Shown here: positions 3,300 through 49,796 of the stretch, one piece after another
How the letters are laid out: every line of letters begins with the position of its first letter
How positions within the stretch are numbered: position 1 is the stretch's first letter
DNA from: Roseateles sp.
GTDB taxonomy: Bacteria; Pseudomonadota; Gammaproteobacteria; Burkholderiales; Burkholderiaceae_C
DNA: 57,190 bases
Assembly: GCA_044357665.1 (NCBI GenBank)
Contig: JBIKPD010000001.1
Span: 1-57,190, forward strand
Direction of reading: 5' to 3'
The notes under the pieces: model-generated
Told to the model about the DNA's origin: nothing
The model's input: only the letters and a program-made list of their open reading frames with translations
The model's database searches: none
Translations under genes and position numbers: made by a program

Positions 3300-4645
3300 C
3301 GTTTGTGCTGGCTCATCCAGCCCTCGAGGTAATGAATATTGGTGCCACCCTCGACGAATTTGGCATCGACCATCAGCTCGCGATGCAAGGGGATATTGGT
3401 CAGAATACCTTCGACCACCGTTTCTGAGAGGGCAATGCGCATGCGTGCCAAGGCCTGTTCGCGCGTATCTCCATGGACGATGATCTTGCCGATCATCGAG
3501 TCGTAATGGGGCGGCACGAAGTAGTTGGTATAGACGTGAGAATCGACCCGCACGCCCGGTCCTCCCGGCGCATGCCACATCGTGATGCGGCCCGGCGACG
3601 GCGTGAACTTGTATGGATCCTCGGCGTTGATCCGGCATTCGATCGCATGTCCGCGCAGGCTGATAGCGCGCTGCGTGAATGGCAGCTTCTCGCCAGCTGC
3701 GATCCTGATCTGCATCTGCACGATGTCGATGCCGGTGACCATTTCAGTGACCGGGTGTTCGACCTGCACGCGCGTGTTCATCTCGATGAAATAGAACTCG
3801 CCGTTCTCGAACAGGAACTCGAATGTGCCGGCGCCGCGATAGCCCATCTTGCGGCAAGCCGCCGAGCAGCGGTCGCCGATCTTCTCGATCACGCGCCGCG
3901 CAATACCCGGTGCCGGAGCTTCTTCGAGGATCTTCTGGTGGCGCCGCTGCATCGAGCAGTCGCGCTCACCCAACCAGACCGCATTCTTGTGTTCGTCGGC
4001 CAGCACCTGGATTTCAATATGGCGAGGGTTCTCCAGGAATTTTTCCAGATAGACCTGCGGATTACCGAAAGCCGCTCCGGCTTCAGCGCGCGTGGTCTGT
4101 ACGGCATTGACCAAGGCAGCCTCGGTGTGGACAACCCGCATGCCGCGCCCGCCACCACCGCCAGCGGCCTTGATGATCACCGGATAACCGACCGAGCGGG
4201 CGATCTTGATGATTTCTTTTGGATCCTCAGGCAAGGCGCCTTCAGATCCTGGCACGCAAGGTACGCCGGCGCGGATCATCGCCTGCTTGGCCGACACCTT
4301 GTCACCCATCATCCGGATCGATTCGGGTGTCGGGCCGATAAAGGTAAAGCCGCTGCGCTCGACGCGCTCGGCAAAGTCAGCGTTTTCGCTCAGGAAGCCG
4401 TAGCCGGGATGGATCGCCTCGGCGTCGGTCACCTCGGCAGTCGCGATGATCGCAGGCATGCTCAGATAGCTCTGAGCCGATGCGGCCGGTCCGATGCAGA
4501 CCGCCTCATCGGCCAGCTTCACATACTTGGCATCGCGGTCGGCTTCGGAATAAACCACCACCGACTTGATGCCCATTTCACGACAGGCGCGCTGGATCCG
4601 GAGGGCGATTTCGCCTCGATTAGCAATCAGTATTTTCTTGAACAT
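3296..4645 (-). CDS. accC: Acetyl-CoA carboxylase biotin carboxylase subunit
   Basis: [47 protein letters not shown]; follows accB. Confidence 0.98.
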
Positions 4646-4985
4646 AGATCCTCGGCTCAATCGCCCTTGCGGGCTGCGCCCTGAGGGCAATTTGGCTCCG
4701 CCGCAAGGCTGGAAGCCTTGTCGCCTCGATTAGCAATCAGTATTTTCTTGAACATAGGTCCTCGGCTCAATCGCCCATGCGGGCTGCGCCCGGAGGGCAA
4801 TTTGGCTTCGCCGCAAGGCTGGAAGCCTTGTCGCCTCGATTAGCAATCAGTATTTTCTTGAACATAGGTCCTCGGCTCAATCGCCCATGCGGGCTGCGCC
4901 CGGAGGGCAATTTGGCTTCGCCGCAAGGCTGGAAGCCTTGTCGCCTCGATTAGCAATCAGTATTTTTTTGAACATAGGTACTCGG
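4598..4985 (-). repeat. 110-bp tandem array duplicating the accC 5' end three extra times with hairpin inserts
   Basis: ATG copies at 4645 (live gene), 4755, 4865 and 4975. Unit = 35 nt accC start + 28 nt insert + 13 nt accC continuation + 34 nt linker with GAGGA. Confidence 0.97.
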
Positions 4986-5037
4986 TTCCATCGCCGTCGC
5001 CTGGCTCATCGAGCCAGAGCCGATCCGGTCAATAGGC

Positions 5038-5484
5038 TTACTCGATGATGAAAAGCGGTTGACCGAATTCGACCGGTTGTCCGTTTTCGCAGAAGACGCG
5101 GGTGATGGTGCCGCTCTTGTCGGCGTCGATCTCATTCATGATCTTCATCGCCTCGATGATGCAAATTGCTTCACCTTCCTTGATCTGTTGACCGACTTCG
5201 GCAAAAGGCTTGGCATTTGGATTGGCTGCGCGGTAGAAAGTACCCACCATCGGGGACTTCACCTCATGACCTGGTTCGGCCGCTGGCGTCGCGGAAGGTG
5301 CTTCTGCGACCGGCGCGGCTGCAACTGCTGCAACGGGAGCCGCAGCCATCGGCACTGCCACCTGGCCGAAGCCGACGGGCGACTTGACGATTCTGACCTT
5401 GCCTTCGGCTTCGGTGATTTCAAGTTCGGAAATATTCGACTCGGACACCAGGTCGATCAAGGTTTTCAGCTTGCGCAAATCCAT
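5038..5484 (-). CDS. accB: Biotin carboxyl carrier protein
   Basis: [29 protein letters not shown] biotinylation motif. Confidence 0.98.
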
Positions 5485-5550
5485 TTTTTTCTCCAACGAA
5501 ATTGTTTACATAGATTGGCGGGGCAGCGATGAACGCGCCCTGCCGGCCTG

Positions 5551-6006
5551 TCAAGCAGGCGGTGGTACAGGGTTGCCGAGCTGCTCGATGGCACAAGCCA
5601 AGGCGAGTTGGTAGCCTTGGGCACCGAGTCCGCAAATCACACCAAGGGCGAGTTCGGAGAAAAAGCTGTGGTGGCGAAAAGTTTCGCGTTTGTGGATATT
5701 CGACAGATGAACTTCAATGAAGGGCAGATCGACGGCGGCCAAAGCATCCCGCATTGCAACGCTGGTATGGGTGTATGCGGCCGGGTTGATGATGATGAAG
5801 CGGCAGCCTTCGCGAGCCGCTGTCTGAATCCGGTCGACCAAGGCGCCCTCGTGATTGCTTTGAAAGGATTCAAGCGAAAATCCGGCTTTCGCTGCTATTT
5901 CTGCAAGATTGGCGTCGATCTGCGCCAAAGTTGTCGAGCCGTAGACCGTCGGCTCGCGGCTGCCGAGCAGGTTGAGGTTGGGGCCGTGAAGTACAAGAAT
6001 TTGCAT
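5551..6006 (-). CDS. aroQ: Type II 3-dehydroquinate dehydratase
   Basis: [29 protein letters not shown] motifs. Confidence 0.97.
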
Positions 6007-6120
6007 TTTGAGCTAAAAGAGGCGTCGATGTCGTCTGTAGTTCGAGCCGTAAAAGCGCGATGGCTTGAACTTTACGCTTTTTAGGACCCGATCGATAAAG
6101 ATTGACTCAAATAAATCGAT

Positions 6121-6648
6121 TTATGCCAGACCCGTCGCAAGTTGACGCAATTCGTCAAGGTGGGTGGCTCCCAGCTTGCGCCAGATGACTTCGCCGTTGG
6201 CTCCGAAGGCCACGCTGAAGGGCAAGCCGCCTTGGGTATTGCCGAGCTTGCGGGCCAGGTCCGTGCCTGTCAGGCCAGCCATGCCAATGTCAAATTCGAG
6301 TGGCAGCTTCTGCAAAAATTCACGCACCGGTGTTGGCGAGTCAACCGCCAAGCCCAGAACTTGCCATCCCTGCGCCTTGAACTCCCGCTGGAATTGAGCC
6401 AATTCAGGCAACTCCTGCACGCAAGGTGGACACCAGGTGGCCCAGAAATTCAGCAGCAAGGGCCTGCCTTTCATGCCGGCTGTGACCAACTCGCCTCCCT
6501 CAGGCCGATCAAAACGCGACGACCAGAAGGCTAGGGCTTCGGCTGATAGCGTCGGTTCGGTCTGCTGTCGCCAGGTCAAACCCAGGCCCAAGGCAGCCAA
6601 GCCGGCACCGGTGATCAACCAGTTGCGGCGTCGATTGAGCATCGTCAT
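6121..6648 (-). CDS. TlpA-family thiol:disulfide oxidoreductase
   Basis: LLNFWATWCPPC motif and N-terminal membrane anchor. Confidence 0.92.
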   Translation of the reverse strand: MTMLNRRRNWLITGAGLAALGLGLTWRQQTEPTLSAEALAFWSSRFDRPEGGELVTAGMKGRPLLLNFWATWCPPCVQELPELAQFQREFKAQGWQVLGLAVDSPTPVREFLQKLPLEFDIGMAGLTGTDLARKLGNTQGGLPFSVAFGANGEVIWRKLGATHLDELRQLATGLA

Positions 6649-7250
6649 GTCGTAATCTCCATCAGTTTTCGCAAAGCGGCGAGGTCGCCGCGTTCACTGC
6701 GCCCGTGGGCGTCGGGTTTGAGCGCGCCGCGCAAGTCATCGAAGTCGAGAATGCTCAAGTGAACGGTCACCAGTTCCCCGAGCGTGGGGCAGCGAGTTGC
6801 CAGCGAAAGCACATCGATCTGCCGGTTCCTCGGGCCTGTCATGGCACCGACTTCATAGTCGACGCCCTGATTGATCAGCGCGATCTCAGCCGATTTGCTG
6901 TCGTCGCAATAGAGCTGCAAGTGAATGTTGGACAGCCGCGTGGCCGTCCCGCGCCATACCGCTCCACATAGATGAGGACGGAATTCTTCCAGACGCGCCA
7001 TCCAGATTGCTGCCAGTTCGCGCAGGGCGCTCAGTTCAGCAGGCTGGGTGTCAGCACAGAACAGGGCCAGGTAGTCGCGCACCTCGTCTTCCAGCTGATT
7101 ATTGTCCGGCAGACGGTTGCGACCGCTGCGTTGCAGGCCCAAGGCCTTCAGCGCATGTTGCTTGGCCGGGCCATATTCAAGCCCTTCTTCAACCACCATG
7201 CGGGCGGCAGTGGCGGCAATCTCAGCTGTGATTTGATTCTCGATCGGCAT
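6645..7250 (-). CDS. Conserved hypothetical protein with degenerate nucleotidyltransferase-like motif
   Basis: EIAATAARMVVEEGLEYGPAK N-terminus and PHLCGAVWRGTA...IHLQL; overlaps the tlpA start. Confidence 0.75.
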   Translation of the reverse strand: MPIENQITAEIAATAARMVVEEGLEYGPAKQHALKALGLQRSGRNRLPDNNQLEDEVRDYLALFCADTQPAELSALRELAAIWMARLEEFRPHLCGAVWRGTATRLSNIHLQLYCDDSKSAEIALINQGVDYEVGAMTGPRNRQIDVLSLATRCPTLGELVTVHLSILDFDDLRGALKPDAHGRSERGDLAALRKLMEITT

Positions 7251-7251
7251 A

Positions 7252-8007
7252 TCAGGGGACCTCGACCCCGCCCATGCGCGCTTCGATGGTGGCAGCGCGG
7301 GACAGCAAGTAGGGCGAAGCAGGACGCTTCTCGAAGCGTTTCGGGGCCGGCAACATGACGGCGAGGCGAGCCGCTTGCTCGGCATTGAGTTGCCTTGCGT
7401 CGATGCGGAAATAATGGCGCGCCGCTGCCTGTGCTCCAAACAGGCCCTCGCCCCATTCGACATTGTTCAGGTAGATTTCCAGAATGCGGCGCTTGCTCAG
7501 CGCAGCTTCCAGCATCAGCGTGATGGCGAACTCCTGGGCTTTGCGGGCGAAATTGCGCTCGCCGCTGAGAAACATGTTCTTGGCCAATTGCTGGGTGATG
7601 GTCGAACCCCCAACGACTTTGGCTGCGGGCGGCGGCTTGGCCGCAGCCGCGGGCTTGGCTTGTGAGCGCTTTACCGCCCTTGCGGCTTCACGCTGGTTGC
7701 GCTCCCAGGCCTTCTCCATGGCGTCCCATTCGACGCCGCCATGGTCGACGAAGCCGGCGTCTTCGCTGGCAATGACCGCACGCTTGAGCTGATTGCCGAG
7801 CATTGCGGCATCGACCCATTGCTGACTCCACAGGAGCTGTTGTTTGTCGACAGCCAGGCGCCAGATTTCCGACCGCTGAAAACTGCTCGACTGCGGTGCC
7901 ACCCAGTTCATCAACATGATCCGCAAGCCGAAATAGATCTGCAATGCCAGCAGGCCGATGACAAGCAACAAGCCCAGGCGCAGCAGCGCGGCGGCTGTCC
8001 TCTTCAT
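7252..8007 (-). CDS. mtgA: Monofunctional peptidoglycan transglycosylase
   Basis: [24 protein letters not shown] and ILEIYLN GT51 motifs. Confidence 0.95.
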
Positions 8008-8837
8008 GCCAGTCGCTCGATCAAAGCAGCCAAGACCGGCTTGGTGTCGGGGCGCAATCCGCGCCAGACCTCGAAGGCTTCGGCCGCCTGCTCGACCAGC
8101 ATGCCCAGACCATCGCGCGCTTGCGCGCCGTGGCTGCCTGCCCAGGCCAGGAAATTTGCAGCGGGCGGGCCATACATCATATCCAGCGCCAGCGCACCGG
8201 GTTTGAGTACTTCAGCCGATACCGGCACGCCGGCTCCAGCCAGGCTCGCGCTGGTGCCGTTGAGCAGGATGTCGTAGCTGCGACCGCAATCGGTCAACCC
8301 GCAAGCCAGCAGTTGAACGCCACGGGCTTGCGCCAGTTCCTGGTGCGACTCGACCAGAGCGCGAGCCTTGTCGGGATTGCGGTTGGCCACCGTGATCGCG
8401 GCCGGGTCTGTGCCGATCAGGCTGCCGAGCACGCCGGCTGCGGCGCCGCCAGCGCCGAGCAGCAGGATGCGTTGGCCAGACAGAGGGATTCCGGCATTGC
8501 CTTCGATGTCCCGTACCAACCCGGCGCCATCGGTGTTGTCGCCGAACCAGCCATCCTGATCAAAGCGCAAGGTGTTGACCGCAGCGGCCAGCGCAGCGCG
8601 AGGGCTCAATGTCCGGGCCAGCCGGCAGGCCTCGAACTTGAACGGTACGGTGACATTGCAGCCGCGCCCGCCTGCCGCAGCAAAAGCCTGCACAGTGGCC
8701 GAAAAGCCGTCGAGGGGGCATTGCAGACGCTCGTAGCTGATCAGCTGGCCCGTCTGCCGGGCAAACTGTGCATGGATGAAAGGTGACTGACTGTGCGCGA
8801 CGGGATTGCCGGCAACTGCGTAAATATCAGGTGTCAT
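8004..8837 (-). CDS. aroE: Shikimate dehydrogenase
   Basis: [36 protein letters not shown]. Confidence 0.97.
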
Positions 8838-9688
8838 CGGGGTGCACTCAAACTGGTTTCCAGACCGTCTTCGCGGGTAAAACGAAAGCGCGAGGTGATC
8901 ACCAGCACTTCTGCGCCCTGGCGCATCGCGCTGCTGAATTCACCGAAAGGCGCCGCGGCGAGAACGATAGCGACGGCTCGGCGATCGAGGTTACGGTCGC
9001 CAGAAGGTGCAACGAGGTCGGTTTCTATCACCTGGCCGTGCAGATCGACATGAATATTCATCGTCAGTTCGCCATACAGCTTGCGACCCTCATGTTCGGG
9101 GAAAAAGCGCGTGCCGCGATCTTCGACGCGCCGGCGCAAGTGATCGTAATACTTGGCGTAAACCACTTCGCGCGTGGCCGGGCTGACATAGCGTTTGCGC
9201 GGCCTGGCCGATTCGTCACTGACACGCTTCTCGATTTCGGCGAGCAACTGCACCAGTTGCCGCCGCTGCTCCACTTGCTCGCGCGCAGCCAGCGCACCCT
9301 TGTCGATTTGCGGCCCTGATGGTGTCAACAAGGCCAGTTCGCGCCGCACGACCGCCAGCAGTTGCTGCTGTTCTTCCTTCAGTTGGTCGATCTCGGCTCG
9401 TTGCGACTCAATTGATTCGCCGATCTCCATCAACGGAGATGGCGGCAAGGGCGAGCTTGACCGACCTTTTTCAAGTTCGCCACCGCCGGCCAGATTGGCT
9501 TGCGCAAGCGCCATGGCTTTCGTTGGCAGTTCCTTGCTGCGCGAATTGACCAGCACCACTTCCAGCGATTGCACCTGGAAAACCCGGTTGAAACCTTCCG
9601 GGTCGACCAAGCGCAGCGTCAGCAGTGCTGCATGCAGGCCCAACGACAAGACCAAAGCAATTTGCAGCGATGAAAGCCTGGCCAGCAT
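8834..9688 (-). CDS. TonB C-terminal domain protein
   Basis: N-terminal SLGLH TM helix, coiled region, C-terminal [11 protein letters not shown]...AAPF TonB_C-like fold. Confidence 0.8.
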
Positions 9689-9690
9689 CT

Positions 9691-11745
9691 TCAGCTCGCA
9701 GCGATTACCTCCGGGCTGACAAGGTCATCACCCGGCAAGTCGTCAGATGTCAGGTCAATGGCCAAGGTCAGCGGGCCGCTGCCTGCGGACTCATCGTCGT
9801 CGATGCTGTCGGCCATTTGCGGCGCTTCGTCGAGGCGCTCGATCAGGGACGCATGCAGGTCCAAGGTCATCTCATCGGTACCGGTGATGCGCACGCGCAC
9901 ATGGGTGCCGCGCGGTAGCGCATCGCAGCCTGCGACTTTGAAGACCAGAGGAAGGTCGTCGGCGCGCACCAGGCCATCCTTCATCACGACGGCGTTCATT
10001 TCGGTGATCTGCGTCTGCGTCACATAGCGCAGGGTCCAGAAACGCTCGATGCCGTTCTGGAAACCGTTGTATTCGGCATAAGCCGAGTCAAAACCCGAGA
10101 TGATCGAGAACAGTTGTGCATCTTTGGGCTTGAACGGCGCCACCAGGGCCGCGGTGCGTCCATGCCTGGCGCAGGCAATGATCTGCCATTGATTGACCAG
10201 ATCAACATAGCGGCGCAGCGGCGACGTGGCCCAAGTGTATTGCGCCACACCGAGGCCGGCATGTGGCTGGGCCTTGGTGCCCATACGCACTTTGATGCCC
10301 GGAGCCATGCTGGCCTGGCTGCGATAGATGCCCGGCAGGCCCAACTCGTTCAGCCAGCCGCCCCAGGTCGAGTTGGCCAGAATCATCGCTTCGGCAACGA
10401 TCAGATCAAGCGGTGCACCGCGCTGTCGGGTGCTGATACTGACCAACTCGCTGCCGTCTGGCTCGCCGGGCGAGGCCTCCGGATTGGCGGCGCTCAGGCG
10501 GAAGTTGTAGTCGGGGCGGTTGAAGTTCTCGGGTTTGCCGCGTACGACTTCGCGCTGAGCTTTCAATGACTTGGCAAGCCGGAAGGCGAAAGCCAGTTCA
10601 GGCGCGAATGCATAGTCGGCGGTCGCGTTGCCAGTCAGCGTCGCCTCGGTGATCAAGGCATCGAGCTTGTCATGGCGCAGATTGGCCTTGATCGGCACCA
10701 GTTCGAGCCTTGTCTGGCTGCTCTGGATCGTCATCGTGGCCTCGTCGAGCGTCACATACAGCGATACGGCAGGACAGTTGCGGCCCTCGATCAGCGTGTA
10801 GGCCTGCACCACCTCGTCAGGCAGCATGGTCAGCTTCCAGCCCGGCATATAGACGGTTGAAAGCCGCTCGCGCGCCACCCGATCGATCGCCGAATCGGGC
10901 TGGAATGCCAGGCCGGGTGCGGCGATATGGACACCGAAGACAATGGTGCCGCTGCCCAGGCCTTGCACCGACAGGGCATCGTCGATCTCGGTGGTGGCCG
11001 AATCGTCAATCGAGAAAGCGCCGACCTGCGCCAGCGGCAACTCATCCTTGATCTCGGGCGCGACCAGGGCCGGGAATCCATGGCCGCCGGGGAATTGCTC
11101 GAACAGGAAGCGCTTCCAGTGGAACTGGTAGGCGCTGCTGATGGCACCGGCAGCCTTCAGCAAGTCCAATGGTGCTTTGTGCGAACGCCTTGTCGCTTCG
11201 AGGACGGCCTTGTATTCAGGACCGTTCTTGTCGGGTTTGAAAAGGATTTTGTAGATTTGCTCGCGCACCGGCTCGGGGCAGCTGCCGGCGGCCAACTCGG
11301 TCGCCCATTGTTCGATCTGCAGGCCTTGCAAGCGCTTGCGCTCAAGCCCCAGCAAGGCGGCCTTTACGATTTCTTCGGGCGCCTTCTTGAACATGCCTTT
11401 GCCGGCGCGACGGAAGTAATGCGGCGCGTCGAAAAGCTTGAACAGGGCGGCGGCCTGATGCGCGATGCCGGCCTTGGCGTCGAAATATTCGCGCGCCAGG
11501 TCGGCGAAACCGAAGTCGTTCTCGGGGGCAAATTCCCAGGCCAGGTCGAGGTCGATTTCCTGCGCCAGTCGCTGGGCCTCGGCAATCAGCTCGGCGGGCG
11601 CCGGTTTTTCGAACTTGAGCAGCACATTGGCGGCCTTCACTTTGACGCGTTTGCCCGAATCCAGCTCGATTTGCATCGAGCTATCGGCTTCAGACATCAC
11701 GCGGCCGGCGAGGAATTTTCCGGCATCATCGAACAGAGCAAACAT
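9691..11745 (-). CDS. RNB-domain ribonuclease (RNase II family)
   Basis: SIDDSATTEIDDALS catalytic motif and TSPLRRYVDL. Confidence 0.93.
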   Translation of the reverse strand: MFALFDDAGKFLAGRVMSEADSSMQIELDSGKRVKVKAANVLLKFEKPAPAELIAEAQRLAQEIDLDLAWEFAPENDFGFADLAREYFDAKAGIAHQAAALFKLFDAPHYFRRAGKGMFKKAPEEIVKAALLGLERKRLQGLQIEQWATELAAGSCPEPVREQIYKILFKPDKNGPEYKAVLEATRRSHKAPLDLLKAAGAISSAYQFHWKRFLFEQFPGGHGFPALVAPEIKDELPLAQVGAFSIDDSATTEIDDALSVQGLGSGTIVFGVHIAAPGLAFQPDSAIDRVARERLSTVYMPGWKLTMLPDEVVQAYTLIEGRNCPAVSLYVTLDEATMTIQSSQTRLELVPIKANLRHDKLDALITEATLTGNATADYAFAPELAFAFRLAKSLKAQREVVRGKPENFNRPDYNFRLSAANPEASPGEPDGSELVSISTRQRGAPLDLIVAEAMILANSTWGGWLNELGLPGIYRSQASMAPGIKVRMGTKAQPHAGLGVAQYTWATSPLRRYVDLVNQWQIIACARHGRTAALVAPFKPKDAQLFSIISGFDSAYAEYNGFQNGIERFWTLRYVTQTQITEMNAVVMKDGLVRADDLPLVFKVAGCDALPRGTHVRVRITGTDEMTLDLHASLIERLDEAPQMADSIDDDESAGSGPLTLAIDLTSDDLPGDDLVSPEVIAAS

Positions 11746-11807
11746 ATGGGCGGCATTGTCGCTGATCAGCTGCCTTGACCTGCAAAGCGCAGCGCGGCGG
11801 GCGAGTA

Positions 11808-14099: not shown

Positions 14100-14106
14100 T
14101 GGCAGC

Positions 14107-23981: not shown

Positions 23982-25160
23982 ATGAATCTGCCCGGCCTGA
24001 ATTTTCAACTTGGCGAAGAGGTCGACGCGCTGCGCGACGCAGTACAGCATTTTGCTCAGCAGGAGATCGCGCCGCGCGCGGCCGAGATCGATGCCAGCGA
24101 CCAGTTCCCGATGGACTTGTGGCGCAAGATGGGCGAGCTCGGGGTGCTCGGTATTACCGTGGCCGAGGAATATGGCGGCGCCAATATGGGGTATCTGGCG
24201 CACATGATCGCGATGGAAGAAATCAGCCGAGCTTCGGCTTCGGTCGGCTTGTCCTATGGAGCGCACTCGAACCTCTGCGTCAATCAGCTCAAGCGCAATG
24301 GCAGCGAGGCGCAGAAGCAGAAATACCTGCCCAAGCTGATCAGCGGCGAGCATGTCGGTGCGTTGGCGATGAGCGAGCCGGGTGCTGGCTCCGATGTCAT
24401 CAGCATGAAGTTGAAGGCCGAAGACAAGGGCGGTTATTACCTGCTCAACGGCAGCAAGATGTGGATCACCAACGGGCCTGACGCCGACACGCTGGTGGTC
24501 TATGCCAAGACCGAGCCCGAGCTGGGTGCGCGCGGCGTGACCGCTTTTCTGATCGAAAAGGGCATGGCCGGCTTCAGCGTGGCGCAAAAACTGAACAAGC
24601 TCGGCATGCGCGGATCGCATACCGGCGAGTTGGTGTTCAGCAATGTCGAAGTGCCGGCGGCCAATATCCTCGGCCACTTGAACGGTGGCGCCAAGGTCTT
24701 GATGTCGGGGCTCGACTATGAGCGCGCCGTGCTGGCCGCAGGGCCGATCGGCATCATGCAGTCGGTGATGGACAACGTCGTGCCTTATATCCATGACCGC
24801 AAGCAATTCGGTCGCAGCATCGGCGAATTCCAGCTGATCCAGGGCAAGGTCGCCGACATGTACACGGTGCTGCAAGCCGGCCGGGCCTTTTGTTACACGG
24901 TCGGCAAGAATCTCGATTTGCTGGGCCTGGAACATGTGCGCCAGGTGCGCAAGGATTGCGCCTCGGTGATTCTGTGGTGTGCCGAAAAAGCGACCTGGAT
25001 GGCCGGCGAGGGCGTGCAGATTTTCGGCGGCAATGGCTATATCAACGACTACCCTCTAGGCCGCCTCTGGCGCGACGCCAAACTCTATGAAATCGGGGCG
25101 GGCACCAGTGAAATCAGACGAATGTTGATTGGACGTGAGTTGTTTGCGGAAACGATGTGA
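23982..25160 (+). CDS. ivd: Isovaleryl-CoA dehydrogenase
   Basis: [56 protein letters not shown]; GGAG RBS before MNLPG. Confidence 0.95.
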
Positions 25161-25462
25161 AGCAGGTCGTGAGCTTCGATTCGGTGAAGGCTCATGTCCG
25201 CGTAGCGGACGTGAAGGCGCAATGCGCCGGCCGCAGCCAAATCGGGGCGGGCACGAGTGAAATCCGGCGAATGCTGATTGGGCGTGAGTTGTTTGCGGAG
25301 ACCATGTGAAGCAGGTCGTGAGCCTCGATTCGGTGAAGGCTCATGTCCGCAGGGCGGACGTGAAGGCGCGAAGCGCCGGCCGCAGCCAAATCGGGGCGGG
25401 CACGAGTGAAATCCGGCGAATGCTGATTGGGCGTGAGTTGTTTGCGGAGACCATGTGAAGCA
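25090..25462 (+). repeat. 149-bp tandem array duplicating the ivd 3' end twice, with 78-bp three-hairpin spacers
   Basis: AAATCGGGGCGGGCAC at 25090 (gene), 25239 and 25388; stop codons end at 25160, 25309 and 25458. Confidence 0.97.
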
Positions 25463-36345: not shown

Positions 36346-36354
36346 ACTAAATTT

Positions 36355-39018: not shown

Positions 39019-39025
39019 GGAATAT

Positions 39026-40446: not shown

Positions 40447-40449
40447 GCG

Positions 40450-40740: not shown

Positions 40741-42587
40741 AATGGCTGCGAATCTTCAGCAAGTCGGTGCAAAGGAAGCCAGGCGCCAGACCGGCGACCA
40801 AGGCCGGCAAAGATGGCAGGCATGGCGCCGCGGCGCATGGCACAAGAGGCGTCAGCTATTCCACCAGCCCGCTGCTGGCTTCGAAGACGCCGCCCTGGCG
40901 CTCGCATTTTCTGGTGGCTGTGGTTGGTCTGGCGTTCGCCGGATTGCTCGGTCGCGCGCTCTTTGTCCAGGTGATCGCAACCGACTTTTATCAAAAGCAG
41001 GGCGAGGCCCGCTATGTGCATACGATCGAGCTGCCAGCCAGCCGTGGTCGCATCAACGACCGCAATGGTCAGGTGCTCGCGGCAAGTGTGGCTGTGCCTT
41101 CGATCTGGGCGATCCCCAAGGAAGTCGATACCGACCCCGAAAAACGGCGCGCCCTGGGCAAGATCCTCGGGTGGAGTCCGGCTGAGCTTGAGCATCGGCT
41201 GGACCCGGCGACCAGATTCGCCTGGCTGCGGCGCCAAGCCGATGATGCGACAGCCGCGCAGATCAAGGCCTTGGGGCTCAAAGGCGTGTTCCAGGATCGG
41301 GAATACAAGCGCAAGTATCCGGAAGGCGAGGCCGCCGCCCATGTGGTCGGTTTCACCAATGTCGAAGAGCGAGGCCAGGAAGGCATTGAGCTGGCGTTCC
41401 AGAAAGACCTGCAGGGACGCGGTGGCTCTCGGTCGGTGGTGCGTGACCGCCTGGGCCGGGTCGTCGAGGATGTCGGCGAAGCCGTCCCGGCGATGAATGG
41501 CCAGGACATCGAGCTGTCGGTTGACTCGAAGGTTCAGTTTTTTGCTTATCAACGCATCCGTGATGCGGTGGCTGATCACAAGGCCAAGGCTGGTAGCGTG
41601 GTCGTTCTCGACGTGCAGACCGGTGAAGTCCTGGCACTGGCCAATTACCCAAGCTATGACCCGGGAGACCGCAGGAATCTCAGCGGCGCACAGTTGCGCA
41701 ACCGCGCGCTGACCGACATTTTCGAGCCAGGGTCAACGATGAAGCCATTCATCGTCGGACTGGCGCTCGAGACCGGTCGCGTCACCCCTGAAACGATGAT
41801 CAATACCGCACCGCGCAGCGTGGTCATCAGCGGCTGGTCCCCGACCGATGCGCATCCCCATGGCGATCTCAGCGTGACCCAGGTGATCCAGAAATCGAGC
41901 AACGTCGGCATCGTCAAGATCGCGATGGGCATGCCGGCCCGCGAAATGCACGAGACCTATACGGCCATCGGCCTTGGTCAGCGTCCGCAGATCGACTTTC
42001 CCGGCGCGATCAGCGGCAAGCTGCGGCCCTACAAGAGCTGGCGGCCGATCGAACAGGCGACGATGGCCTTCGGCTACGGCGTGTCGGCCTCCTTGTTCCA
42101 GTTGGCACAAGCCTATACGGTGTTTGCCCGCGACGGCGAAATCATCCCGGTGACGATGATGCGCAAGCCCGCGGGTGAACCGGTTCATGGCATCAAGGTC
42201 TTCTCGCCGAAGACCGCGTTGCAATTGCGTGAAATGCTGCAATTGGCTGCAGGTCCGGGTGGTACCGCGCCGCAAGCGCAGGTCAGCGGCTACAGCGTTG
42301 GCGGCAAATCGGGGACGGCGCGAAAGCAGGAAGGCAAAGGCTATGCCGGCAACAAATATCGGTCCTGGTTCGTTGGCATCGCGCCGATCAACAAGCCGCG
42401 CATCATCGTTGCGGTGATGGTCGACGAGCCGACGACCGGCGGTCACTATGGCGGCGAGGTCGCAGGCCCGGTGTTCAGCCAGGTGGTGGCACAAAGCCTG
42501 CGCCTGCTGGGTGTGCCGCCTGATCTGGATGTCAAGTCGCAAATCGTCGCGAACCAGAAGCTGCAAGCGGTTGAAGAGAGCTTCTGA
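40737..42587 (+). CDS. ftsI: Penicillin-binding protein 3
   Basis: RGRINDRNG, EPGSTMK (SxxK), SSN, KSG. Start uncertain. Confidence 0.96.
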   Translation: MKWLRIFSKSVQRKPGARPATKAGKDGRHGAAAHGTRGVSYSTSPLLASKTPPWRSHFLVAVVGLAFAGLLGRALFVQVIATDFYQKQGEARYVHTIELPASRGRINDRNGQVLAASVAVPSIWAIPKEVDTDPEKRRALGKILGWSPAELEHRLDPATRFAWLRRQADDATAAQIKALGLKGVFQDREYKRKYPEGEAAAHVVGFTNVEERGQEGIELAFQKDLQGRGGSRSVVRDRLGRVVEDVGEAVPAMNGQDIELSVDSKVQFFAYQRIRDAVADHKAKAGSVVVLDVQTGEVLALANYPSYDPGDRRNLSGAQLRNRALTDIFEPGSTMKPFIVGLALETGRVTPETMINTAPRSVVISGWSPTDAHPHGDLSVTQVIQKSSNVGIVKIAMGMPAREMHETYTAIGLGQRPQIDFPGAISGKLRPYKSWRPIEQATMAFGYGVSASLFQLAQAYTVFARDGEIIPVTMMRKPAGEPVHGIKVFSPKTALQLREMLQLAAGPGGTAPQAQVSGYSVGGKSGTARKQEGKGYAGNKYRSWFVGIAPINKPRIIVAVMVDEPTTGGHYGGEVAGPVFSQVVAQSLRLLGVPPDLDVKSQIVANQKLQAVEESF

Positions 42588-42590
42588 GTC

Positions 42591-44087
42591 ATGGCCAACC
42601 GACTCCAATCTCCCGAGGCTGCAGCAGGCTGGTTGCAGCAAAAGGGTTGCGGCCGTTTGCAGACCGACAGTCGCCTGGTCCAGACCGGTGATGCCTTCAT
42701 CGCCTGGCCCGGTCATGTCAGCGACGGCCGCAAGTTCGTGCCTGCAGCCTTGGCCGCGGGCGCTGCGGCCTGCCTGGTCGAAGCCGAGGGGCTTGAAGAA
42801 TTCGGCTTTCCATCTGCACAGGTCGCATCCCTGGTCGGCTTGAAAGCGCAAGCCGGGCGGGTCGCCTCGGCTTATTACGAGATGCCCTCCAAGGCGCTGG
42901 CCGTGCTGGCCGTGACCGGTACCAATGGCAAGACCTCCTGTGCCTGGTGGACCGCGCAGGCCTTGGCGATGTTGGGCCAACGCTGCGGCGTCATCGGCAC
43001 GCTCGGGATTGGCGAGCCGCCAAGCCCGGATCAGCCAGCAAGGCTTGAAGAAACCGGCCTGACCACGCCCGACCCGGTGAAATTGCAATCGGCCTTGCGC
43101 TCGATGGCCGATCAGGGCTTCGAGGCCTGTGCGATCGAAGCCTCGTCGATCGGCCTGACCGAGCAGCGCCTGGCGGGTCTTTCGGTGCGGGTGGCCCTGT
43201 TCACCAACTTCAGTCAAGACCATCTTGACTATCACCAAGGGATGCAAGCCTATTGGTCGGCCAAGCGGCAGCTGTTTGACTTCGACGGGCTGCAAGCTGC
43301 CGTGATCAACCTCGACGACGCCAAGGGCGCCGAGCTGGCGGCGGAACTGGCTGGGCGTCTCGAACTCTGGACCTATGGGCTGGAAGCGCCAGCGCGCTTG
43401 AACGCGCACTCATTGCACTACCGCGCCGGTGGCATGGTTTTCACCTTGCAGGAGCAGGGCGCTTTGCCGGTCTTGATCGAAACCGGCTTGATCGGTGAGT
43501 TCAATGTGGCCAATCTGCTCGCTGTCATCGGGGGCTTGCGTGCGCTAGGGCAAACGCTGGCATCGATCGCGGCGGTGATCGGCCGGGTCACTCCGGTGCC
43601 GGGGCGGATGCAGCGAGTCGGTAACGGCCGGGACCTGCCGCAAGTCGTCGTCGACTATGCCCATACGCCTGACGCGCTTGAAAAAGCGCTGACGGCCTTG
43701 AAACCGCTGACGGCAGCGCGCGGCGGTGATCTGCATTGCCTGTTCGGCTGCGGCGGTAACCGCGACCAGGCCAAGAGGCCGTTGATGGGTGCGATTGCGG
43801 CCCGACTGGCTGACCGGGTCACCCTCACCAGCGACAACCCGCGCCGTGAAGATCCGGCAGCAATCATCACGGCCATTGCTGCCGGCCTGCCTGTTGCATC
43901 GAATTTTTCGGCTGAACCCGATCGGCGCGCTGCGATTTTGCATGCCGTACTTGGCGCCGACCGGCGCGACGTGCTGCTGCTGGCTGGCAAGGGCCATGAG
44001 GATTACCAGGAATCGGCAGGCTTGCGCAGGCATTTTTCCGATCTCGAAGAATCGCGTCAGGCGCTGCTGTCGAGGGCTGGGCTATGA
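42591..44087 (+). CDS. murE: UDP-MurNAc-dipeptide:meso-DAP ligase
   Basis: TGTNGKTS, TTPDP, DYAHTPD, DNPR, AGKGHE. Confidence 0.97.
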   Translation: MANRLQSPEAAAGWLQQKGCGRLQTDSRLVQTGDAFIAWPGHVSDGRKFVPAALAAGAAACLVEAEGLEEFGFPSAQVASLVGLKAQAGRVASAYYEMPSKALAVLAVTGTNGKTSCAWWTAQALAMLGQRCGVIGTLGIGEPPSPDQPARLEETGLTTPDPVKLQSALRSMADQGFEACAIEASSIGLTEQRLAGLSVRVALFTNFSQDHLDYHQGMQAYWSAKRQLFDFDGLQAAVINLDDAKGAELAAELAGRLELWTYGLEAPARLNAHSLHYRAGGMVFTLQEQGALPVLIETGLIGEFNVANLLAVIGGLRALGQTLASIAAVIGRVTPVPGRMQRVGNGRDLPQVVVDYAHTPDALEKALTALKPLTAARGGDLHCLFGCGGNRDQAKRPLMGAIAARLADRVTLTSDNPRREDPAAIITAIAAGLPVASNFSAEPDRRAAILHAVLGADRRDVLLLAGKGHEDYQESAGLRRHFSDLEESRQALLSRAGL

Positions 44088-45499
44088 CGACGATGATGAC
44101 GCTGAAACAAGCTTTTCAATTGCTCTTGCCGACATTGCCGACAGCAACCTTGGTCGGCGCTGGCGACATCGCCATCAACCGAGTGCATAGCGACACGCGC
44201 AGCTTGCAGACTGGCGACTTGTTCGTCGCCTTGCGTGGCGAGCGTTTTGACGCCCATGAGTTTTTGCCCCAGGCGGCCGCAGCCGGGGCAGTCGCTGCGC
44301 TGGCTGAGCATGGTCTTGCCGAGACCGGACTGCCAGGTATTCTGGTGCCCGATGTGAAGGCCGCGTTGGGTCTGCTGGCCGCTGCCTGGCGCCGCCGCTT
44401 CGATCTGCCCCTGATCGCAGTGACCGGCAGCAACGGCAAGACGACGGTGACACAGATGATCGCCAGCATCCTGTGTCAGTGGCAGGGCAGCCATGCGCTG
44501 GCCACGGCAGGCAACTTCAACAACGACATCGGCGTGCCCCTGACCTTGCTGCGTTTGCGGCAGAACGGCGCGCTGCAGCATCGCGTGGCGGTGCTTGAGC
44601 TCGGTATGAACCATCCTGGCGAGATCGCGCCGCTGGCTGCGATGGTGGCGCCGACGGTCGCTTTGGTGAACAACGCGCAGCGCGAACATCAGGAGTTCTT
44701 GCAGACGGTCGAGGCTGCAGCGCGCGAGAACGGTGCAGTGATCGAAGCGCTCGGCCCGCAAGGCGTCGCAGTGTTTCCGGCCGAAGATCCCTGCGCACCG
44801 ATCTGGCAGCAGCTGGCCGGGCCGCGCCGCGCCCTCAGCTTCGCGCTGCAGGGGCCGGCCGACGTGCAAGGCAAGGCAAGTTGGTCAGCAGCCGGCCATT
44901 GGGATCTGCAATTGCAGTCGCCTGCAGGCGCTGCGCGGGTGTTGCTCAAAGTGGCGGGTCAGCACAATGTCCGCAACGCCTTGGCGGCAGCGGCTTGCGC
45001 CATGGCTGTGGGCGCACCGCTGGCTGCGGTCGTCGCGGGCCTTGAGCAGTTCCAGCCGGTCAAGGGCCGCTCGCAACTGCAGACCCTGGTGCGGGATGGT
45101 CAGCCGGTCAGCCTGATCGACGACAGCTACAACGCCAACCCCGACAGTGTCCGCGCCGCGATCGACCTGCTCGCCGGGCTGCCGGGCCGATCCTGGCTGG
45201 TACTCGGTGACATGGGTGAAGTCGGTGACCAGGGGCCGGCATTCCACGCTGAAGTTGGCGCCTATGCGCAAGCGCGTGGACTGGCGGCAATGTGGACCGC
45301 AGGCAGCGCGGCCGCCGATGCCGCCGCGGCTTTCGGCAGCAAGGCCAGACATTTCGAAAATGCCGCCGCGTTGACCGCGGCTTTACCTGATGCGCCGAAG
45401 GTGCGCAATATCTTGATCAAGGGGTCCCGGTTCATGCGCATGGAACAAGTCGTCGCCGCTTTGCAGAACGAGCCGGTCGGAGCACAGCATGCTGCTTAG
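44084..45499 (+). CDS. murF: UDP-MurNAc-tripeptide:D-Ala-D-Ala ligase
   Basis: [30 protein letters not shown]. Confidence 0.97.
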
Positions 45500-46667
45500 C
45501 CTGTCTCAATGGCTGCAGGCCCATTACCCCGAGATGGGCTTTCTGCGGGTCTTCCAGTACATCACCTTCCGTGCGGTGATGGCGGCGATGACCGCCTTGC
45601 TGATCGGCCTGGCTTTCGGACCCTGGGTGATCAGGCGGCTGACCGAAATGAAGATCGGCCAGCCGATTCGTCAATATGGTGTCGAGCAGCATCTGTCCAA
45701 GAGTGGCACGCCGACGATGGGCGGGGTGCTGATCCTGATCGGCATTGGCGTGTCGACCCTGCTCTGGTTCGACTGGAGCAACCGCTTTGTCTGGATCGTG
45801 ATGCTGGTGACGATGGGCTTCGGCGCGATCGGCTGGGTCGACGATTGGCGCAAGGTGGTCGACAAGAATCCTGAAGGCATGCGCAGCCGCGAGAAGTTCT
45901 TCTGGCAGTCCCTGATCGGTCTGATCGCAGCGCTCTACCTGGCCTTCAGCGTCTCGGAGACATCGATCGTTGGTGTTCTGCAGTTGTTCACGCGCTGGGT
46001 CACCAGCGGCTTTTCGACCGACCTGCCACCCAAAGCGGGCCTACTTTTGCCCTTCTTCAAGACGGTCAGCTATCCGCTGGGTGTTTTCGGCTTTATCGCC
46101 TTGTCCTACTTCGTCATCGTCGGAACCAGCAACGCGGTCAACTTCACCGATGGCCTCGATGGCTTGGCGATCATGCCGGTGGTGCTGGTCGGCTCGGCCC
46201 TGGGTCTGTTCGCCTATGTGACCGGCTCGTCGGTGTTCTCCAAATACCTGTTGCTGCCCTATATCCCCGGGGCTGGCGAATTGCTGATTTTCTGCGCGGC
46301 GATGGCCGGAGCCGGCCTGGCATTTCTCTGGTTCAACACCCATCCGGCCCAGGTCTTCATGGGCGATGTCGGCGCGCTGTCGCTCGGCGGCGCCCTCGGC
46401 ACCTTGGCCGTCATCACGCGCCAGGAAATCGTGCTGGGCATCATGGGCGGTGTGTTCGTCGCCGAGGTGATGTCGGTGATCATTCAGGTCAGTTGGTTCA
46501 AGTTCACGAAAAAGAGATACGGCGTTGGCCGCCGCATCTTCAAGATGGCGCCCTTGCACCATCATTTTGAAAAATCAGGCTGGCTGGAATCGCAGGTCGT
46601 CGTGCGCTTCTGGATCATCACGATGCTCCTGTGTCTGGTTGGCCTGGCCAGCTTGAAGCTGCGTTGA
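45489..46667 (+). CDS. mraY: Phospho-MurNAc-pentapeptide transferase
   Basis: [33 protein letters not shown]. Confidence 0.98.
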
Positions 46668-46671
46668 CGGA

Positions 46672-48330
46672 ATGAAGAACCTGCAAGGACTCAAGGTGCT
46701 GGTGCTGGGGTTGGGTGACTCCGGCTTGGCCATGGCTGCCTGGGTCCAGCGCTGTGGCGGGCAAACACGGGTCTGGGACTCGCGCGAGCAACCGCCCCAG
46801 CTCGAGCGCCTTCGCCAGGACCTGCCCGAGGTTGGCTTCTTCAGCGGCTTGCTCGATGCGCAGGCCTTGGACGGGGTGCAATTGCTGCTGAAGAGCCCGG
46901 GCCTGGCCCCGCATGACCTGCGCATCGCAGCCCTGCTTGGCGCGGCCAAGCAGCAGGGCTTGCCGGTGCAGGGGGAACTCGATCTGTTCGCACAGGCGCT
47001 GGCTGAGCTGAAGCAGGAGCGGGGCTATGCGCCGCAAGTTCTGGCGATCACCGGGACCAATGGCAAGACCACGACGACCTGCATGACCGCCTTGCTGGTC
47101 GAACGCGCCGGGCGGCGCGTCGCCATGGCCGGTAATGTCGGGCCCAGCATGTTGACGACGCTGTCTGCGGCGCTCGATCTGGAGCCGCTGGCGGTCGCAG
47201 CCCCTGAGAAGGAGATCGTCGAGGCTGAGTTGACCACGCTCGAGCAGGTCGATGCGATGCTGGACGAAGCACCGCTACCGATCAAGCCGCCACTGCCCAA
47301 AGGGCCTTCGTTCTTGTACCTGCCCGAGGTCTGGGTGCTCGAGCTGTCAAGCTTCCAGCTCGACGGCGTGCAGGGTTTCGAGGCCAGTGCGGCTGCAGTG
47401 TTGAACCTGACCGAGGATCACCTCGACTGGCATGGCGACATGCCGGCCTACATCAAGGCCAAGGCCAGAATTTTTGGTGAACAGGCCATCATCGTGGTCA
47501 ATCGCGACGACCCGAGGGTCGAGGCGCTGGTGCCGGCACCGCTGCTGGTCAAACCCTTGCGCGGTCGCCCCAAGCTGGTGGGCCGGCAGGTGGTTCGATT
47601 CGGGCTCAACAATCCGCAGCATCCGGGTGACTTCGGCTTGGTTCAGGAAGGCGGCATGTCGTGGCTGGTGCGTGCGCGCGAAGCCGATGAGACTTTCAAG
47701 CGCAAACAGGATGAGCCCGAGGACATATCGCTGCAGCGCCTGATGCCGGCTGACGCCTTGCGGGTGCGCGGCCGCCACAACTCGGCCAACGCGCTTGCGG
47801 CGCTGGCATTGGCTACAGCCGCCGGCTGTGCGCTGGCGCCGATGCTGCATGCCTTGCGCGAATACCGGGGCGAACCGCACCGGGTCGAGCATATAGGCAC
47901 GATCAACGGTGTCGATTTCTACGACGACTCCAAGGGCACCAATGTCGGCGCGACCGTCGCTGCGATCAGCGGCCTGGGGCTGGACCGTGCGCCGGCCAGA
48001 CTGCTGTTGATACTCGGCGGCGATGGCAAGGGTCAGGATTTCAGTCCCTTGGCCGATCCAGTGGCTCGCTATGTGCGGGCAGTCGCGTTGATCGGACGCG
48101 ACGCAAAGCAGATCGCCGCGGCGCTGGGCGACAGTCAAGTGCTGCTGGAATTCCTGCCGTCGCTTGAAGCGGCCACCGAATGGTGCGCGACCCAAGCGCA
48201 TAGCGGCGACTCGGTGTTGCTGAGCCCGGCCTGCGCCAGCCTCGACATGTTCCGCAACTATGAACATCGTGCCGAAGTCTTTGTCGCAGCGGTGCAGTCG
48301 CTGGCGCAGGAACAGGGCATCGCCGCATGA
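46672..48330 (+). CDS. murD: UDP-MurNAc-L-Ala:D-Glu ligase
   Basis: [36 protein letters not shown]. Confidence 0.97.
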
Positions 48331-49583
48331 GCGCCATGCTTTCCATCAGGGAGCTGTCCTCGCGTCTGAAAGCGCGCTGGTCAGGTGCTGCTGCGGGAGA
48401 CGTCCCGGTGCGCGATTGGGTCAATGTCGGCGCCGGTCAGCCGACCAAGCTGGCGGGCTATGACCAGACCCTGGTGTGGGTCGTACTCGCCTTGCTGGGC
48501 CTGGGCTTGTTGATGGTCTATTCGGCTTCGATCGCAATGCCCGACAACCCCAAATCCAGCCATTACCTGCCAACCCATTTCCTTTTGCGCCATGTGATGT
48601 CGATCCTGCTGTCGCTGTTGGTCGCGCTGACCGTCATGCAGTTGCCGGTGGCCTATTGGGAACGGGCTGCGCCCTGGTTGTTCGTGGTCTCGCTGGTGCT
48701 GCTGGTGATCGTACTGGTTCCCTTTATCGGCAAAGTCGTCAACGGCGCGCGCCGCTGGTTGCCGCTGGGCTTGATCAACTTCCAGCCTTCCGAGTTGGCC
48801 AAGTTGGCGATCGCGATGTATGCCGCCAGCTATATGGTGCGCAAGATGGAGGCCAGGGAGAACTTCATCCAGGCGGTCTGGCCGATGGCCGCTGCGCTGG
48901 CAGTCGTGGGTGTGCTGTTGCTGGCCGAACCGGATATGGGCGCCTTCATGGTGATCGCGGCGATCGCGATGGGCATTCTCTTTCTCGGCGGTGTCAACGG
49001 ACGCATGATCGCTTTGAGCGTTGCGGTGCTGGTCGGTGCCTTTGTGCTGATGATCACCTTCAGCGACTTCCGCCGTGAACGCATCTTCGCCTACCTGAAT
49101 CCCTGGGACGAAAAATACGCACAGGGCAAGGCCTACCAGTTGACTCATTCATTGATTGCCTTCGGTCGTGGTGAATGGACTGGCCAGGGATTGGGGTCGA
49201 GTGTCGAGAAGCTGCATTACCTGCCCGAAGCGCATACCGATTTCCTGCTCGCCGTGATCGGCGAAGAGCTCGGCTTTATCGGTGTCGCGATCGTCATCTG
49301 CGCCTTTTTCTGGATTTCGCGCCGGCTCTTCCACATCGGCCGCCAGGCAATCGCCTTGGACCGGATTTTCGCCGGCCTGTTTGCGCAGGGCATCGGTATC
49401 TGGATGGGTGGTCAGGCGTTCATCAATATGGGTGTGAATCTCGGCGCGCTGCCGACCAAAGGCCTGACCCTGCCTTTGATGAGCTTTGGCGGCTCGGCCA
49501 TCCTGATGAACTGCGTCGCCCTCGCCATCGTCCTCCGCATTGATATTGAAAACCGCCAACTCATGCGAGGTGGCCGAGCATGA
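48327..49583 (+). CDS. ftsW: Peptidoglycan polymerase (SEDS)
   Basis: [31 protein letters not shown]. Confidence 0.97.
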
Positions 49584-49796
49584 GCGGCTTGCAGCGGAGC
49601 GAAAAGCCGGCAAGGCAGCCCGGGCTGTCTTGCATGGCGGTTTGGGCGCAGCCAAAACAGGCAATTGATGTCCGGTGGCCGAGCATGAGCGGCTTGCAGC
49701 GGAGCGAAAAGCCGGCAAGGCAGCCCGGGCTGTCTTGCATGGCGGTTTGGGCGCAGCCAAAACAGGCAATTGATCCGAGGAGGCCGCGCATGAGCG
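49549..49796 (+). repeat. 105-bp tandem array duplicating the ftsW 3' end twice, with hairpin spacers
   Basis: AAAAC at 49549 (gene), 49654 and 49759; TGA at 49581, 49686 and 49791. Confidence 0.95.

What the first reader, a model, noticed from the sequence alone, without database searches (positions are those of the whole stretch)
4598..49796. One family of gene-terminus-copying mini-arrays at accC, ivd and ftsW, sharing an end motif and a G^AAA target
Seen in sequence: three unrelated genes each carry a tandem array whose unit is a copy of that gene's terminus plus short GC-rich hairpins. On the coding strand the gene-derived part resumes inside a Glu codon followed by A (accC GGC G^AA ATC; ivd TAT G^AA ATC; ftsW ATT G^AA AAC). 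It is always preceded by a similar 10-mer: CGGCG(A/G)AGCC|AAAT (accC), GGCCGCAGCC|AAAT (ivd), GGGCGCAGCC|AAAA (ftsW), consensus SGSCGVAGCC|AAA, in the same codon phase (x-R-S-Q in place of E). Each insert also has an AAGGC-initiated hairpin upstream of that motif. Independent slippage duplications would not be expected to share an end motif and a target word. Inference: a non-autonomous 105-150 bp element family that inserts repeatedly at gene ends and regenerates the terminus, as integrative elements do with att sites in gene ends. Here it is tiny and carries locus-specific homology, so it could be retargetable (RNA- or ssDNA-guided). No candidate enzyme lies in this window.
Basis: partly seen in the sequence, partly recalled or inferred. 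Interest (0 to 1): 0.92.

Follow-up and report, generated by a model that had tools for sequence, protein, structure and literature searches.

The report
Guide-bearing mini-elements that replace gene ends
The three arrays are copies of a family of tiny gene-less DNA elements, common in Burkholderiales, that sit exactly between a G and an A, bring a spare copy of the gene end they interrupt, and carry a stretch complementary to their own insertion site, which likely lets them choose targets by DNA base-pairing with the help of an enzyme not yet found.

Summary
The arrays at accC, ivd and ftsW are real, and relatives have empty sites. They belong to one family. A folded core ending GCC|A occurs in 72 of 300 family and 79 of 400 order genomes (reversed controls 4 and 0). 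It sits at about 25 gene termini, on either strand, in frame inside genes, in a tRNA, in prophages and inside other repeats. In 66 terminus-copying cases the left junction is G|A 57 times and C|A 8 times, so the target is G^A rather than G^AAA. Each unit carries a stretch antisense to the target's right side; at accC it covaries with the host's wobble codons. The terminus copies differ mostly synonymously, so the element brings its own. GNA triloops point to single-stranded DNA. Best reading: a non-autonomous, IS608-like single-strand element with a natural DNA guide. The enzyme was not found: Y1 and integron integrases show no association, and Y2, RT, IS110 and Rep_trans are missing from most element-rich genomes tested. 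The scan noted this family before on other DNA (e1-10519139, e1-3825294); nine paper searches found no description.

The parts
4611..4612 (-). accC insertion point G|A in codon 12 (Glu); regenerated target site
   Evidence: empty alleles
4600..4611 (-). host right-hand target sequence read by the accC guide
4612..4721 (-). accC unit nearest the gene: hairpin 1 (4704-4721), GGC-GNA-GCC minihairpin (4694-4703), decoy of the target (4683-4693), GNA hairpin (4671-4681), guide plus GA-GCC (4654-4666), RBS and live start codons 1-11 (4612-4645)
4722..4831 (-). accC unit 2, same parts; its start copy (4722-4755) is displaced
4832..4941 (-). accC unit 3, same parts
4942..4975 (-). outermost displaced accC start
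4976..5037 (-). accB-accC spacer, longer than in empty alleles (about 10 nt); possible decayed older unit (inference)
25089..25090 (+). ivd insertion point G|A (Glu codon)
25090..25238 (+). ivd unit 1: recoded live 3' end (25090-25160), guide (25173-25181), expanded core (25182-25238)
25239..25387 (+). ivd unit 2: displaced 3' end, guide (25322-25330), core (25331-25387)
25388..25458 (+). last displaced ivd 3' end (6 synonymous, 0 non-synonymous codon differences from the live end in the identical middle copy)
49548..49549 (+). ftsW insertion point G|A (Glu codon)
49549..49653 (+). ftsW unit 1: live 3' end (49549-49583), hairpins (one at 49610-49633), guide GGCGGTTT (49636-49643) complementary to the live end, minimal core (49644-49653)
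49654..49758 (+). ftsW unit 2 (mosaic end copy, hairpins, guide 49741-49748, core 49749-49758)
49759..49793 (+). last displaced ftsW 3' end

Best explanation
The arrays are copies of a small gene-less element family that sits exactly between G and A, carries its own copy of the interrupted gene terminus and a stretch antisense to the target, and likely moves as folded single-stranded DNA by an IS608-like cut-and-join reaction supplied in trans. Shown: exact G|A (or C|A) left junction; no target duplication in the simplest modules; an invariant core ending GCC|A; an element-borne terminus; guide-target complementarity with covariation; DNA-type GNA loops. Inferred steps: (1) one strand folds so that the element's 5' end (A-X) pairs with anti-X next to the GGC/GCC stem capped by G.A pairs, bringing both N|A bonds together; (2) a single-strand nuclease/ligase, most likely HUH-type, excises a circle; (3) the target's right side displaces X on the guide and the element is joined in at G|A; (4) at a gene end X is the replacement tail, while at a start (accC) the unit also carries an RBS, a new start and a second guide; (5) the regenerated site allows re-insertion, and unequal recombination can add units; (6) new specificities likely arise by fold-back copying of the target.
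For: Empty accC sites in 17 of 23 genus relatives, filled in 6; ivd empty in 3 and ftsW empty in 1 of 5 relatives. Displaced versus live accC starts: 117 synonymous against 38 non-synonymous codon changes in 42 loci, a few fetched twice. The wobble base just before the cut varies in displaced starts while the new start has GGC G in 27 of 27: an exact junction without shared homology. Core in 72 of 300 family genomes (control 4) and 79 of 400 order genomes (control 0). Left junction G|A 57, C|A 8, A|A 1 of 66, against 6% background each. The guide pairs the left copy over 9.5 nt versus 5.1 nt for the right (longer in 43, equal in 23, shorter in 0). accC guide-host target helix: 96.9% paired, 4 pairs with two-sided changes, whole structure 0 of 500 shuffles; guide-internal decoy: no covariation. 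Hairpin loops in 158 cores: GNA triloop 120 of 246, reverse-strand TNC 2, GNRA 12, UNCG 1. Copies on the template strand (folD in this genome; nuoD, ruvC), in a tRNA gene (L219), in prophage head genes, inside other repeats and without duplication, and in frame in 8 of 10 genes examined. IS200/IS605 elements choose cut sites by DNA guide pairing on single strands, and IS608 is retargetable by extended pairing (PMC8266576, PMC5934647, passages).
Against: No enzyme found. No transposase among 98 neighbouring ORFs; the only mobile-type enzyme was one phage integrase. The single-copy Y1 beside dgt is not associated (42 of 79 versus 142 of 321, p=0.17), and 0 of 5 element-bearing near-complete genomes that lacked this Y1 had any Y1_Tnp match. 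Y2 1 of 5, RT 2 of 5, IS110 1 of 5, Rep_trans 2 of 5. No circle or excised form was seen. In 3'-end units anti-X also pairs with the element's own tail, so only the accC type gives independent evidence of target reading, and pairing in cis after insertion could also produce that covariation. At argF, filled alleles share codons a little upstream of the cut too, which allows spread by homologous recombination. No clear lagging-template bias (15 of 20 regions with slightly negative skew). The highest copy numbers (G049, G319, part of G081) come from hitch-hiking in another repeat.
Confidence: 0.55

Rival explanations
1. No dedicated enzyme: the stable core hairpin provokes replication template-switching that copies the neighbouring gene end and builds the antisense arm; filled alleles then spread by homologous recombination and amplify by unequal crossing-over.
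For: No enzyme association. Several guides are perfect 15-20-nt fold-backs with short loops (L209, L390, L272, L248, L265). The ftsW middle copy is the mosaic that unequal crossing-over would give. argF filled alleles share some upstream codons.
Against: The same core sits at exact G|A joints in unrelated genes, a tRNA, phage genes and other repeats with no duplication. Host-specific wobble bases persist right up to the accC cut. The core is conserved across 79 of 400 genomes.
Confidence: 0.2
2. A tyrosine recombinase that acts on folded single strands (integron integrase or XerC/D, as for CTX phage) integrates the folded unit.
For: The window's genome has an integron integrase on the same contig as the mccA-like array, plus XerC/D-like proteins. 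XerC/D are near-universal (recalled), which would fit the lack of correlation.
Against: IntI is in 14 of 22 element-rich and 14 of 21 element-free genomes. The exchanged bond is G|A, not the AA|C of attC (recalled rule), and the AAC/GTT-like stem in the core varies (TAAC, TCAC, TGAC, TCAT).
Confidence: 0.1
3. The units are RNA-level regulatory cassettes (for accC a relay leader: a short upstream reading frame that unlocks a masked restart), fixed for expression control rather than mobile.
For: The displaced accC start opens a short frame that stops beside the new RBS, and the guide-target helix would enclose the RBS. A metatranscriptome contig spans the accC units (DNA not excluded).
Against: The same core occurs on template strands, at 3' ends, in a tRNA, mid-gene and inside repeats. 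Loops are GNA triloops, not RNA tetraloops. Presence is patchy among close relatives. It may be a side effect that makes accC insertion harmless.
Confidence: 0.08
4. An RNA-guided or retro-mechanism (IS110 bridge RNA, reverse transcriptase) moves the unit through its transcript.
For: Most terminus copies are on the coding strand (48 of 66 at codon phase 1).
Against: Template-strand copies; GNA loops; IS110 in 1 of 5 and RT in 2 of 5 element-rich genomes; no Rfam match above a gathering score in 13 loci.
Confidence: 0.07

Closest known systems
IS200/IS605 single-strand transposons (IS608) and their ORF-less derivatives
   Same: Strand-specific hairpins, no target duplication in the simplest modules, and a cut site chosen by DNA-DNA pairing with an element-borne guide. 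IS608 can be retargeted by engineered extended pairing (PMC5934647, passages).
   Different: No TnpA in or beside any locus and no Y1 association. The guide here is 7-20 nt, naturally variable, and pairs 3' of the cut; the IS608 guide is a fixed tetranucleotide reading the 5' side. These elements carry replacement gene termini.
REP/BIME with TnpA-REP (RAYT)
   Same: Short GC-rich hairpins, tandem clusters, mobilised in trans by a single-strand enzyme (PMC8266576, passages; PMC3333891, listing only).
   Different: No GTAG foot. The junction is G|A or C|A, not C|T. They insert into coding ends, tRNA and mid-gene at specific sites. No RAYT gene is flanked by the core.
Integrative elements that regenerate a gene end (recalled: SXT at prfC, islands at guaA or tRNA)
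   Same: An element-borne, recoded terminus replaces the host's; tandem copies occur.
   Different: 52-175 nt, no integrase, no cargo, and no shared core homology needed at the left junction.
Rickettsia palindromic elements and other MITEs
   Same: About 60-150-nt palindromic units inserted in frame into proteins (PMC10969869, passages).
   Different: No terminal inverted repeats or target duplication of the MITE kind; target-complementary guide and terminus replacement.

Membership tests
IS200/IS605 (non-autonomous) | cognate Y1 TnpA in the element or genome | tested here: not met
   no Y1 among 98 neighbours; no association, p=0.17; no Y1_Tnp in 5 of 5 selected element-bearing genomes
IS200/IS605 (non-autonomous) | no target-site duplication | tested here: met
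   self-contained modules in bioB, an RHS-like gene and other repeats; the terminus copies are element-borne
IS200/IS605 (non-autonomous) | fixed tetra/pentanucleotide target 5' of the cut, read by a fixed guide | tested here: not met
   only the -1 and +1 bases are constant; the guide is variable and pairs 3' of the cut
IS200/IS605 (non-autonomous) | single-stranded circular intermediate; lagging-template preference | tested here: inconclusive
   strand-specific GNA loops; skew test weak and mixed; circles not testable
REP/BIME-RAYT | 5' GTAG/GTGG foot on the hairpin | tested here: not met
   core and alignment lack it
REP/BIME-RAYT | RAYT gene flanked by the repeats | tested here: not met
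   the genome's only Y1 (L191) is not flanked by the core; none in neighbours
Integron cassette (attC) | invariant AAC/GTT core sites and IntI association | tested here: not met
   the stem varies; IntI 14 of 22 versus 14 of 21
Integrase-encoding integrative element | replacement of the gene terminus | tested here: met
Integrase-encoding integrative element | encoded integrase | tested here: not met
   units are too short to encode one; no cargo-bearing unit seen among the fetched loci
TIR-type MITE | terminal inverted repeats and a short target duplication | tested here: not met
   ends are A-X and GCC or GGCG, not inverted repeats of each other; no short duplication
IS91/Y2 rolling-circle | Y2 transposase available | tested here: inconclusive
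   three partial or broken matches in this genome; 1 of 5 element-rich genomes; G|A nicking by rolling-circle enzymes is recalled
IS110/bridge RNA or retroelement | DEDD recombinase or RT available; RNA-type structure | tested here: not met

The most novel reading that the evidence does not exclude
A natural, programmable DNA-guided insertion system. A 22-60-nt folded core recruits a so far unknown (possibly host-encoded) single-strand cut-and-join enzyme, and a self-written 7-20-nt DNA guide sends it to any G^A site, where it can swap in a new gene terminus without a double-strand break.
Probability: 0.4. Interest if true: 0.93.

Novelty: new variant of a known kind. Interest (0 to 1): 0.82.

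Why it matters
It is a widespread (about one in five Burkholderiales genomes by one strict pattern) and apparently undescribed mobile family that rewrites the ends of essential genes, inserts peptides in frame and rides in prophages. If the guide steers insertion, it is the natural counterpart of engineered IS608 retargeting: a gene-less, DNA-programmed, scarless insertion device. Its enzyme can now be fished with short defined oligonucleotides. It also explains spurious short ORFs before accC-type genes and odd peptide inserts in proteins such as BioB and AcrB-type pumps.

Tried and rejected
An ivd junction pattern over 400 order genomes was too unspecific: of 30 loci fetched only the window's was an element; its 3 viral hits were chance. 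The generic TTTSGGCGNAGCCAAAA viral scan gave mostly chance hits, plus some minimal modules in prophage-like contigs. Plasmid BLAST of the ivd core: 1 weak unrelated hit. Rfam on 13 loci: one sub-threshold chance match. Enzyme candidates without support: dgt-linked Y1 (276 of 300 family genomes), Y2, RT, IS110, Rep_trans and IntI. A short-range descriptor scan of this genome was only weakly above its reversed control (16 versus 11) and was used only for leads. The automatic 'self-contained' class was noisy and was not used for the junction count; only inspected examples and one search were used. Replication-strand bias was inconclusive. Laying contigs showed no informative excision joint; contigs cannot show rare forms. 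Decay of a plain long target duplication was rejected by the synonymous bias. Paper searches without a description of this family: (open-licence library only; no supplements read).
Full report
Observation. TRF finds the three arrays, and the sequence shows the motif, the Glu-codon G^A junction and the hairpins as described. The genes score as accC, an acyl-CoA dehydrogenase and ftsW. The 13-nt motif occurs 18 times in the genome against 5.9 expected; 9 of these are in terminus arrays. Contigs from lake metagenome runs of several studies bridge the junctions, and relatives carry the units, so assembly error is excluded.

More sites in this genome. Short-range repeat scans found further terminus copies on contigs C40, C33/C131, C146, C256, C81, C411, C361 and C289. 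I recognised them from their peptides as guaC, an mccA-like carboxylase, dps, metK, glmS, prs, acs and folD; these names are recalled, with metK and glmS supported by Pfam hits on orthologous loci. All have a G|A left junction. The folD unit lies on the template strand, so the element strand need not be the transcribed one.

Empty and filled sites. accC is empty in 17 and filled in 6 of 23 genus relatives fetched, with 1-3 units. Of 5 relatives, ivd is empty in 3 and ftsW in 1. A genome-collection scan gave 63 loci: 35 were accC/pccA-type units, whose titles name Betaproteobacteria or unnamed Proteobacteria, and 28 were other or chance matches. Displaced and live starts differ by 117 synonymous and 38 non-synonymous codon changes over 42 loci, a few fetched twice. 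In single-unit alleles the displaced start keeps the native upstream context, while the live start follows a conserved element RBS. The wobble base before the cut varies in displaced starts, whereas the new start always ends GGC G (27 of 27). The element therefore brings its own terminus and joins exactly at G|A. For 3' ends the live copy is often recoded and shared across genera while the displaced copy is host-like (L216, L223, L256). One ftsW allele shows the opposite bias (L241), and several displaced copies are degraded in their first codons.

One family. The ivd body shares an expanded core, CGGYGMAGGCT-hairpin(s)-GCCGNAGCC|A, with a pccA unit and three other sites in this genome. The minimal form is C/G-GGC-GNA-GCC|A. 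The core pattern matches 72 of 300 family genomes (reversed control 4) and, in a stricter form, 79 of 400 order genomes (control 0). About 2600 metagenome stretches match a looser pattern, of which 66 of 120 inspected had the true stem; 20 of 47 viral hits did too. Targets include argF, metK (two sites), ftsW, ivd, glmS, cysH, dps, accB, nuoD, ruvC, a tRNA gene and phage portal and head genes (names partly recalled). Of 219 distinct core contexts, 66 had a clear terminus duplicate: their left junctions are G|A 57, C|A 8, A|A 1, against 6% background for each dinucleotide. The other 153 were not used for this count.

The guide. Every window unit holds the reverse complement of the target's right side just before the core. 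In the 66 duplicates it pairs the left copy over 9.5 nt and the right over 5.1 nt. In 3'-end units that could be mere pairing with the element's own tail. The accC type is the independent test: across 27 loci the guide pairs the host sequence after the cut in 96.9% of cells, with two-sided changes at the Glu, Ile, Ala and Leu positions (whole structure: 0 of 500 shuffles; slid controls far lower). It shows no covariation with the element's internal decoy. Kinship inflates the shuffle test, and selection for pairing after insertion could also give this pattern. Some pccA units are antisense across the whole junction (L080, L081, L094).

DNA, not RNA. Among 246 hairpin loops in 158 cores, 120 are GNA triloops, 2 their complement, 12 GNRA and 1 UNCG; that GNA loops are DNA-specific stabilisers is established knowledge, recalled. 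The ivd unit folds as DNA into guide-target stem, C.A mismatch, GG/CC stem with a GNA/GNA internal loop and two hairpins (z -2.8; the opposite strand scores -2.6; the accC unit alone is not significant). No Rfam family matches.

Simplest forms. Self-contained modules (A-X-loop-antiX-C-core, down to 22 nt) sit at G|A or C|A with no duplication: in bioB, an RHS-like gene, prophage genes and inside other repeats. Several units are perfect 15-20-nt fold-backs of the target, which suggests how new guides arise (inference). The high counts in G049, G319 and part of G081 are hitch-hiking inside another repeat.

Mechanism. I commit to a non-autonomous single-strand element. The fold juxtaposes the two N|A bonds, a trans-acting cut-and-join enzyme excises and reinserts the unit, and the guide reads the 3' side of the target. 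The exact junction, terminus replacement, complementarity and strand-specific fold are shown; circles, the enzyme and guide-driven choice are inferred. IS200/IS605 elements and REPs use DNA guides on single strands (PMC8266576, passages), and IS608 gains specificity by engineered extended pairing (PMC5934647, passages). Against it: no transposase among 98 neighbours. The dgt-linked Y1, probably of the REP-less subclass 2.1 (PMC6006769, passages; assignment inferred), is in 276 of 300 family genomes but is not associated across the order (42 of 79 versus 142 of 321, p=0.17), and five selected element-bearing genomes lack any Y1_Tnp. Y2, RT, IS110, Rep_trans and IntI are patchy or unassociated. 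At argF, filled alleles are more alike after the cut (0.74) than before (0.61), unlike empty ones (0.60 and 0.58), yet they share some upstream codons and the empties were picked by likeness to a filled allele, so spread by recombination is not excluded. Array growth may be re-insertion (polar decay in L003/L004) or unequal crossing-over (ftsW mosaic).

Known or new. It works like IS608 or REP elements and, in outcome, like integrative elements and Rickettsia palindromic elements (PMC10969869, passages), but it fails a defining test for each. Nine paper searches found no description (open-licence papers only, supplements unread). Two earlier notes of this scan concern the same family on other genomes: e1-10519139 reached the same reading at mraY, and e1-3825294 read the accC unit as a relay leader. 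Neither is independent support. This report adds the cross-target core, the junction statistics, the covariation control, the duplication-free modules and the negative enzyme tests.

Verdict. Real, widespread, apparently undescribed; mechanism likely (0.55), enzyme open; interest 0.82.

Noticed in passing
window 49-241: 86-nt hairpin-rich tandem repeat at the contig start beginning G|ACAAG with an inverted arm; may be another unit of the family or a different repeat; the upstream gene is missing.
   Followed up: no
window 49795-49960: GTAG-type REP cluster between the ftsW array and murG, with 15-nt degenerate repeats; also present in relative G024.
   Followed up: partly
L191 (G000:C61:1-678): Single-copy Y1 HUH gene beside dgt, found in 276 of 300 family genomes: a near-universal domesticated transposase of unknown substrate. 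An inverted-repeat MITE lies between it and dgt here.
   Followed up: partly
G000 C15 and L196 (C131): attC-like repeats and an integron integrase about 3 kb from the mccA-like array.
   Followed up: partly
G049:C1: 16 core matches, nearly all nested in an inverted-repeat MITE, show strong orientation blocks along the chromosome (8 of 9 minus between 0.43 and 1.81 Mb, 7 of 7 plus from 1.92 Mb), suggesting replichore bias of that MITE.
   Followed up: no
L463-L491 (argF empty alleles): About 10 of 28 element-free argF ends carry the element-type codons (GCA, CTT): possible scars of lost elements; the selection of alleles was biased towards them.
   Followed up: partly
G000 C95, C100, C527, C491, C372, C65: Other gene-end or intergenic arrays; C95 and C100 have a guide-core-like hairpin at a gene end next to a different palindromic repeat; C527 and C491 are uncertain members.
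   Followed up: no
L067, L098: A Bacteroidales repeat shares GNAGCCAGATTGCAG with the accC-type core; relation unknown.
   Followed up: no
window 625-1122: 21-nt coding repeat of a histone-like Ala/Lys/Pro-rich protein; ordinary.
   Followed up: no
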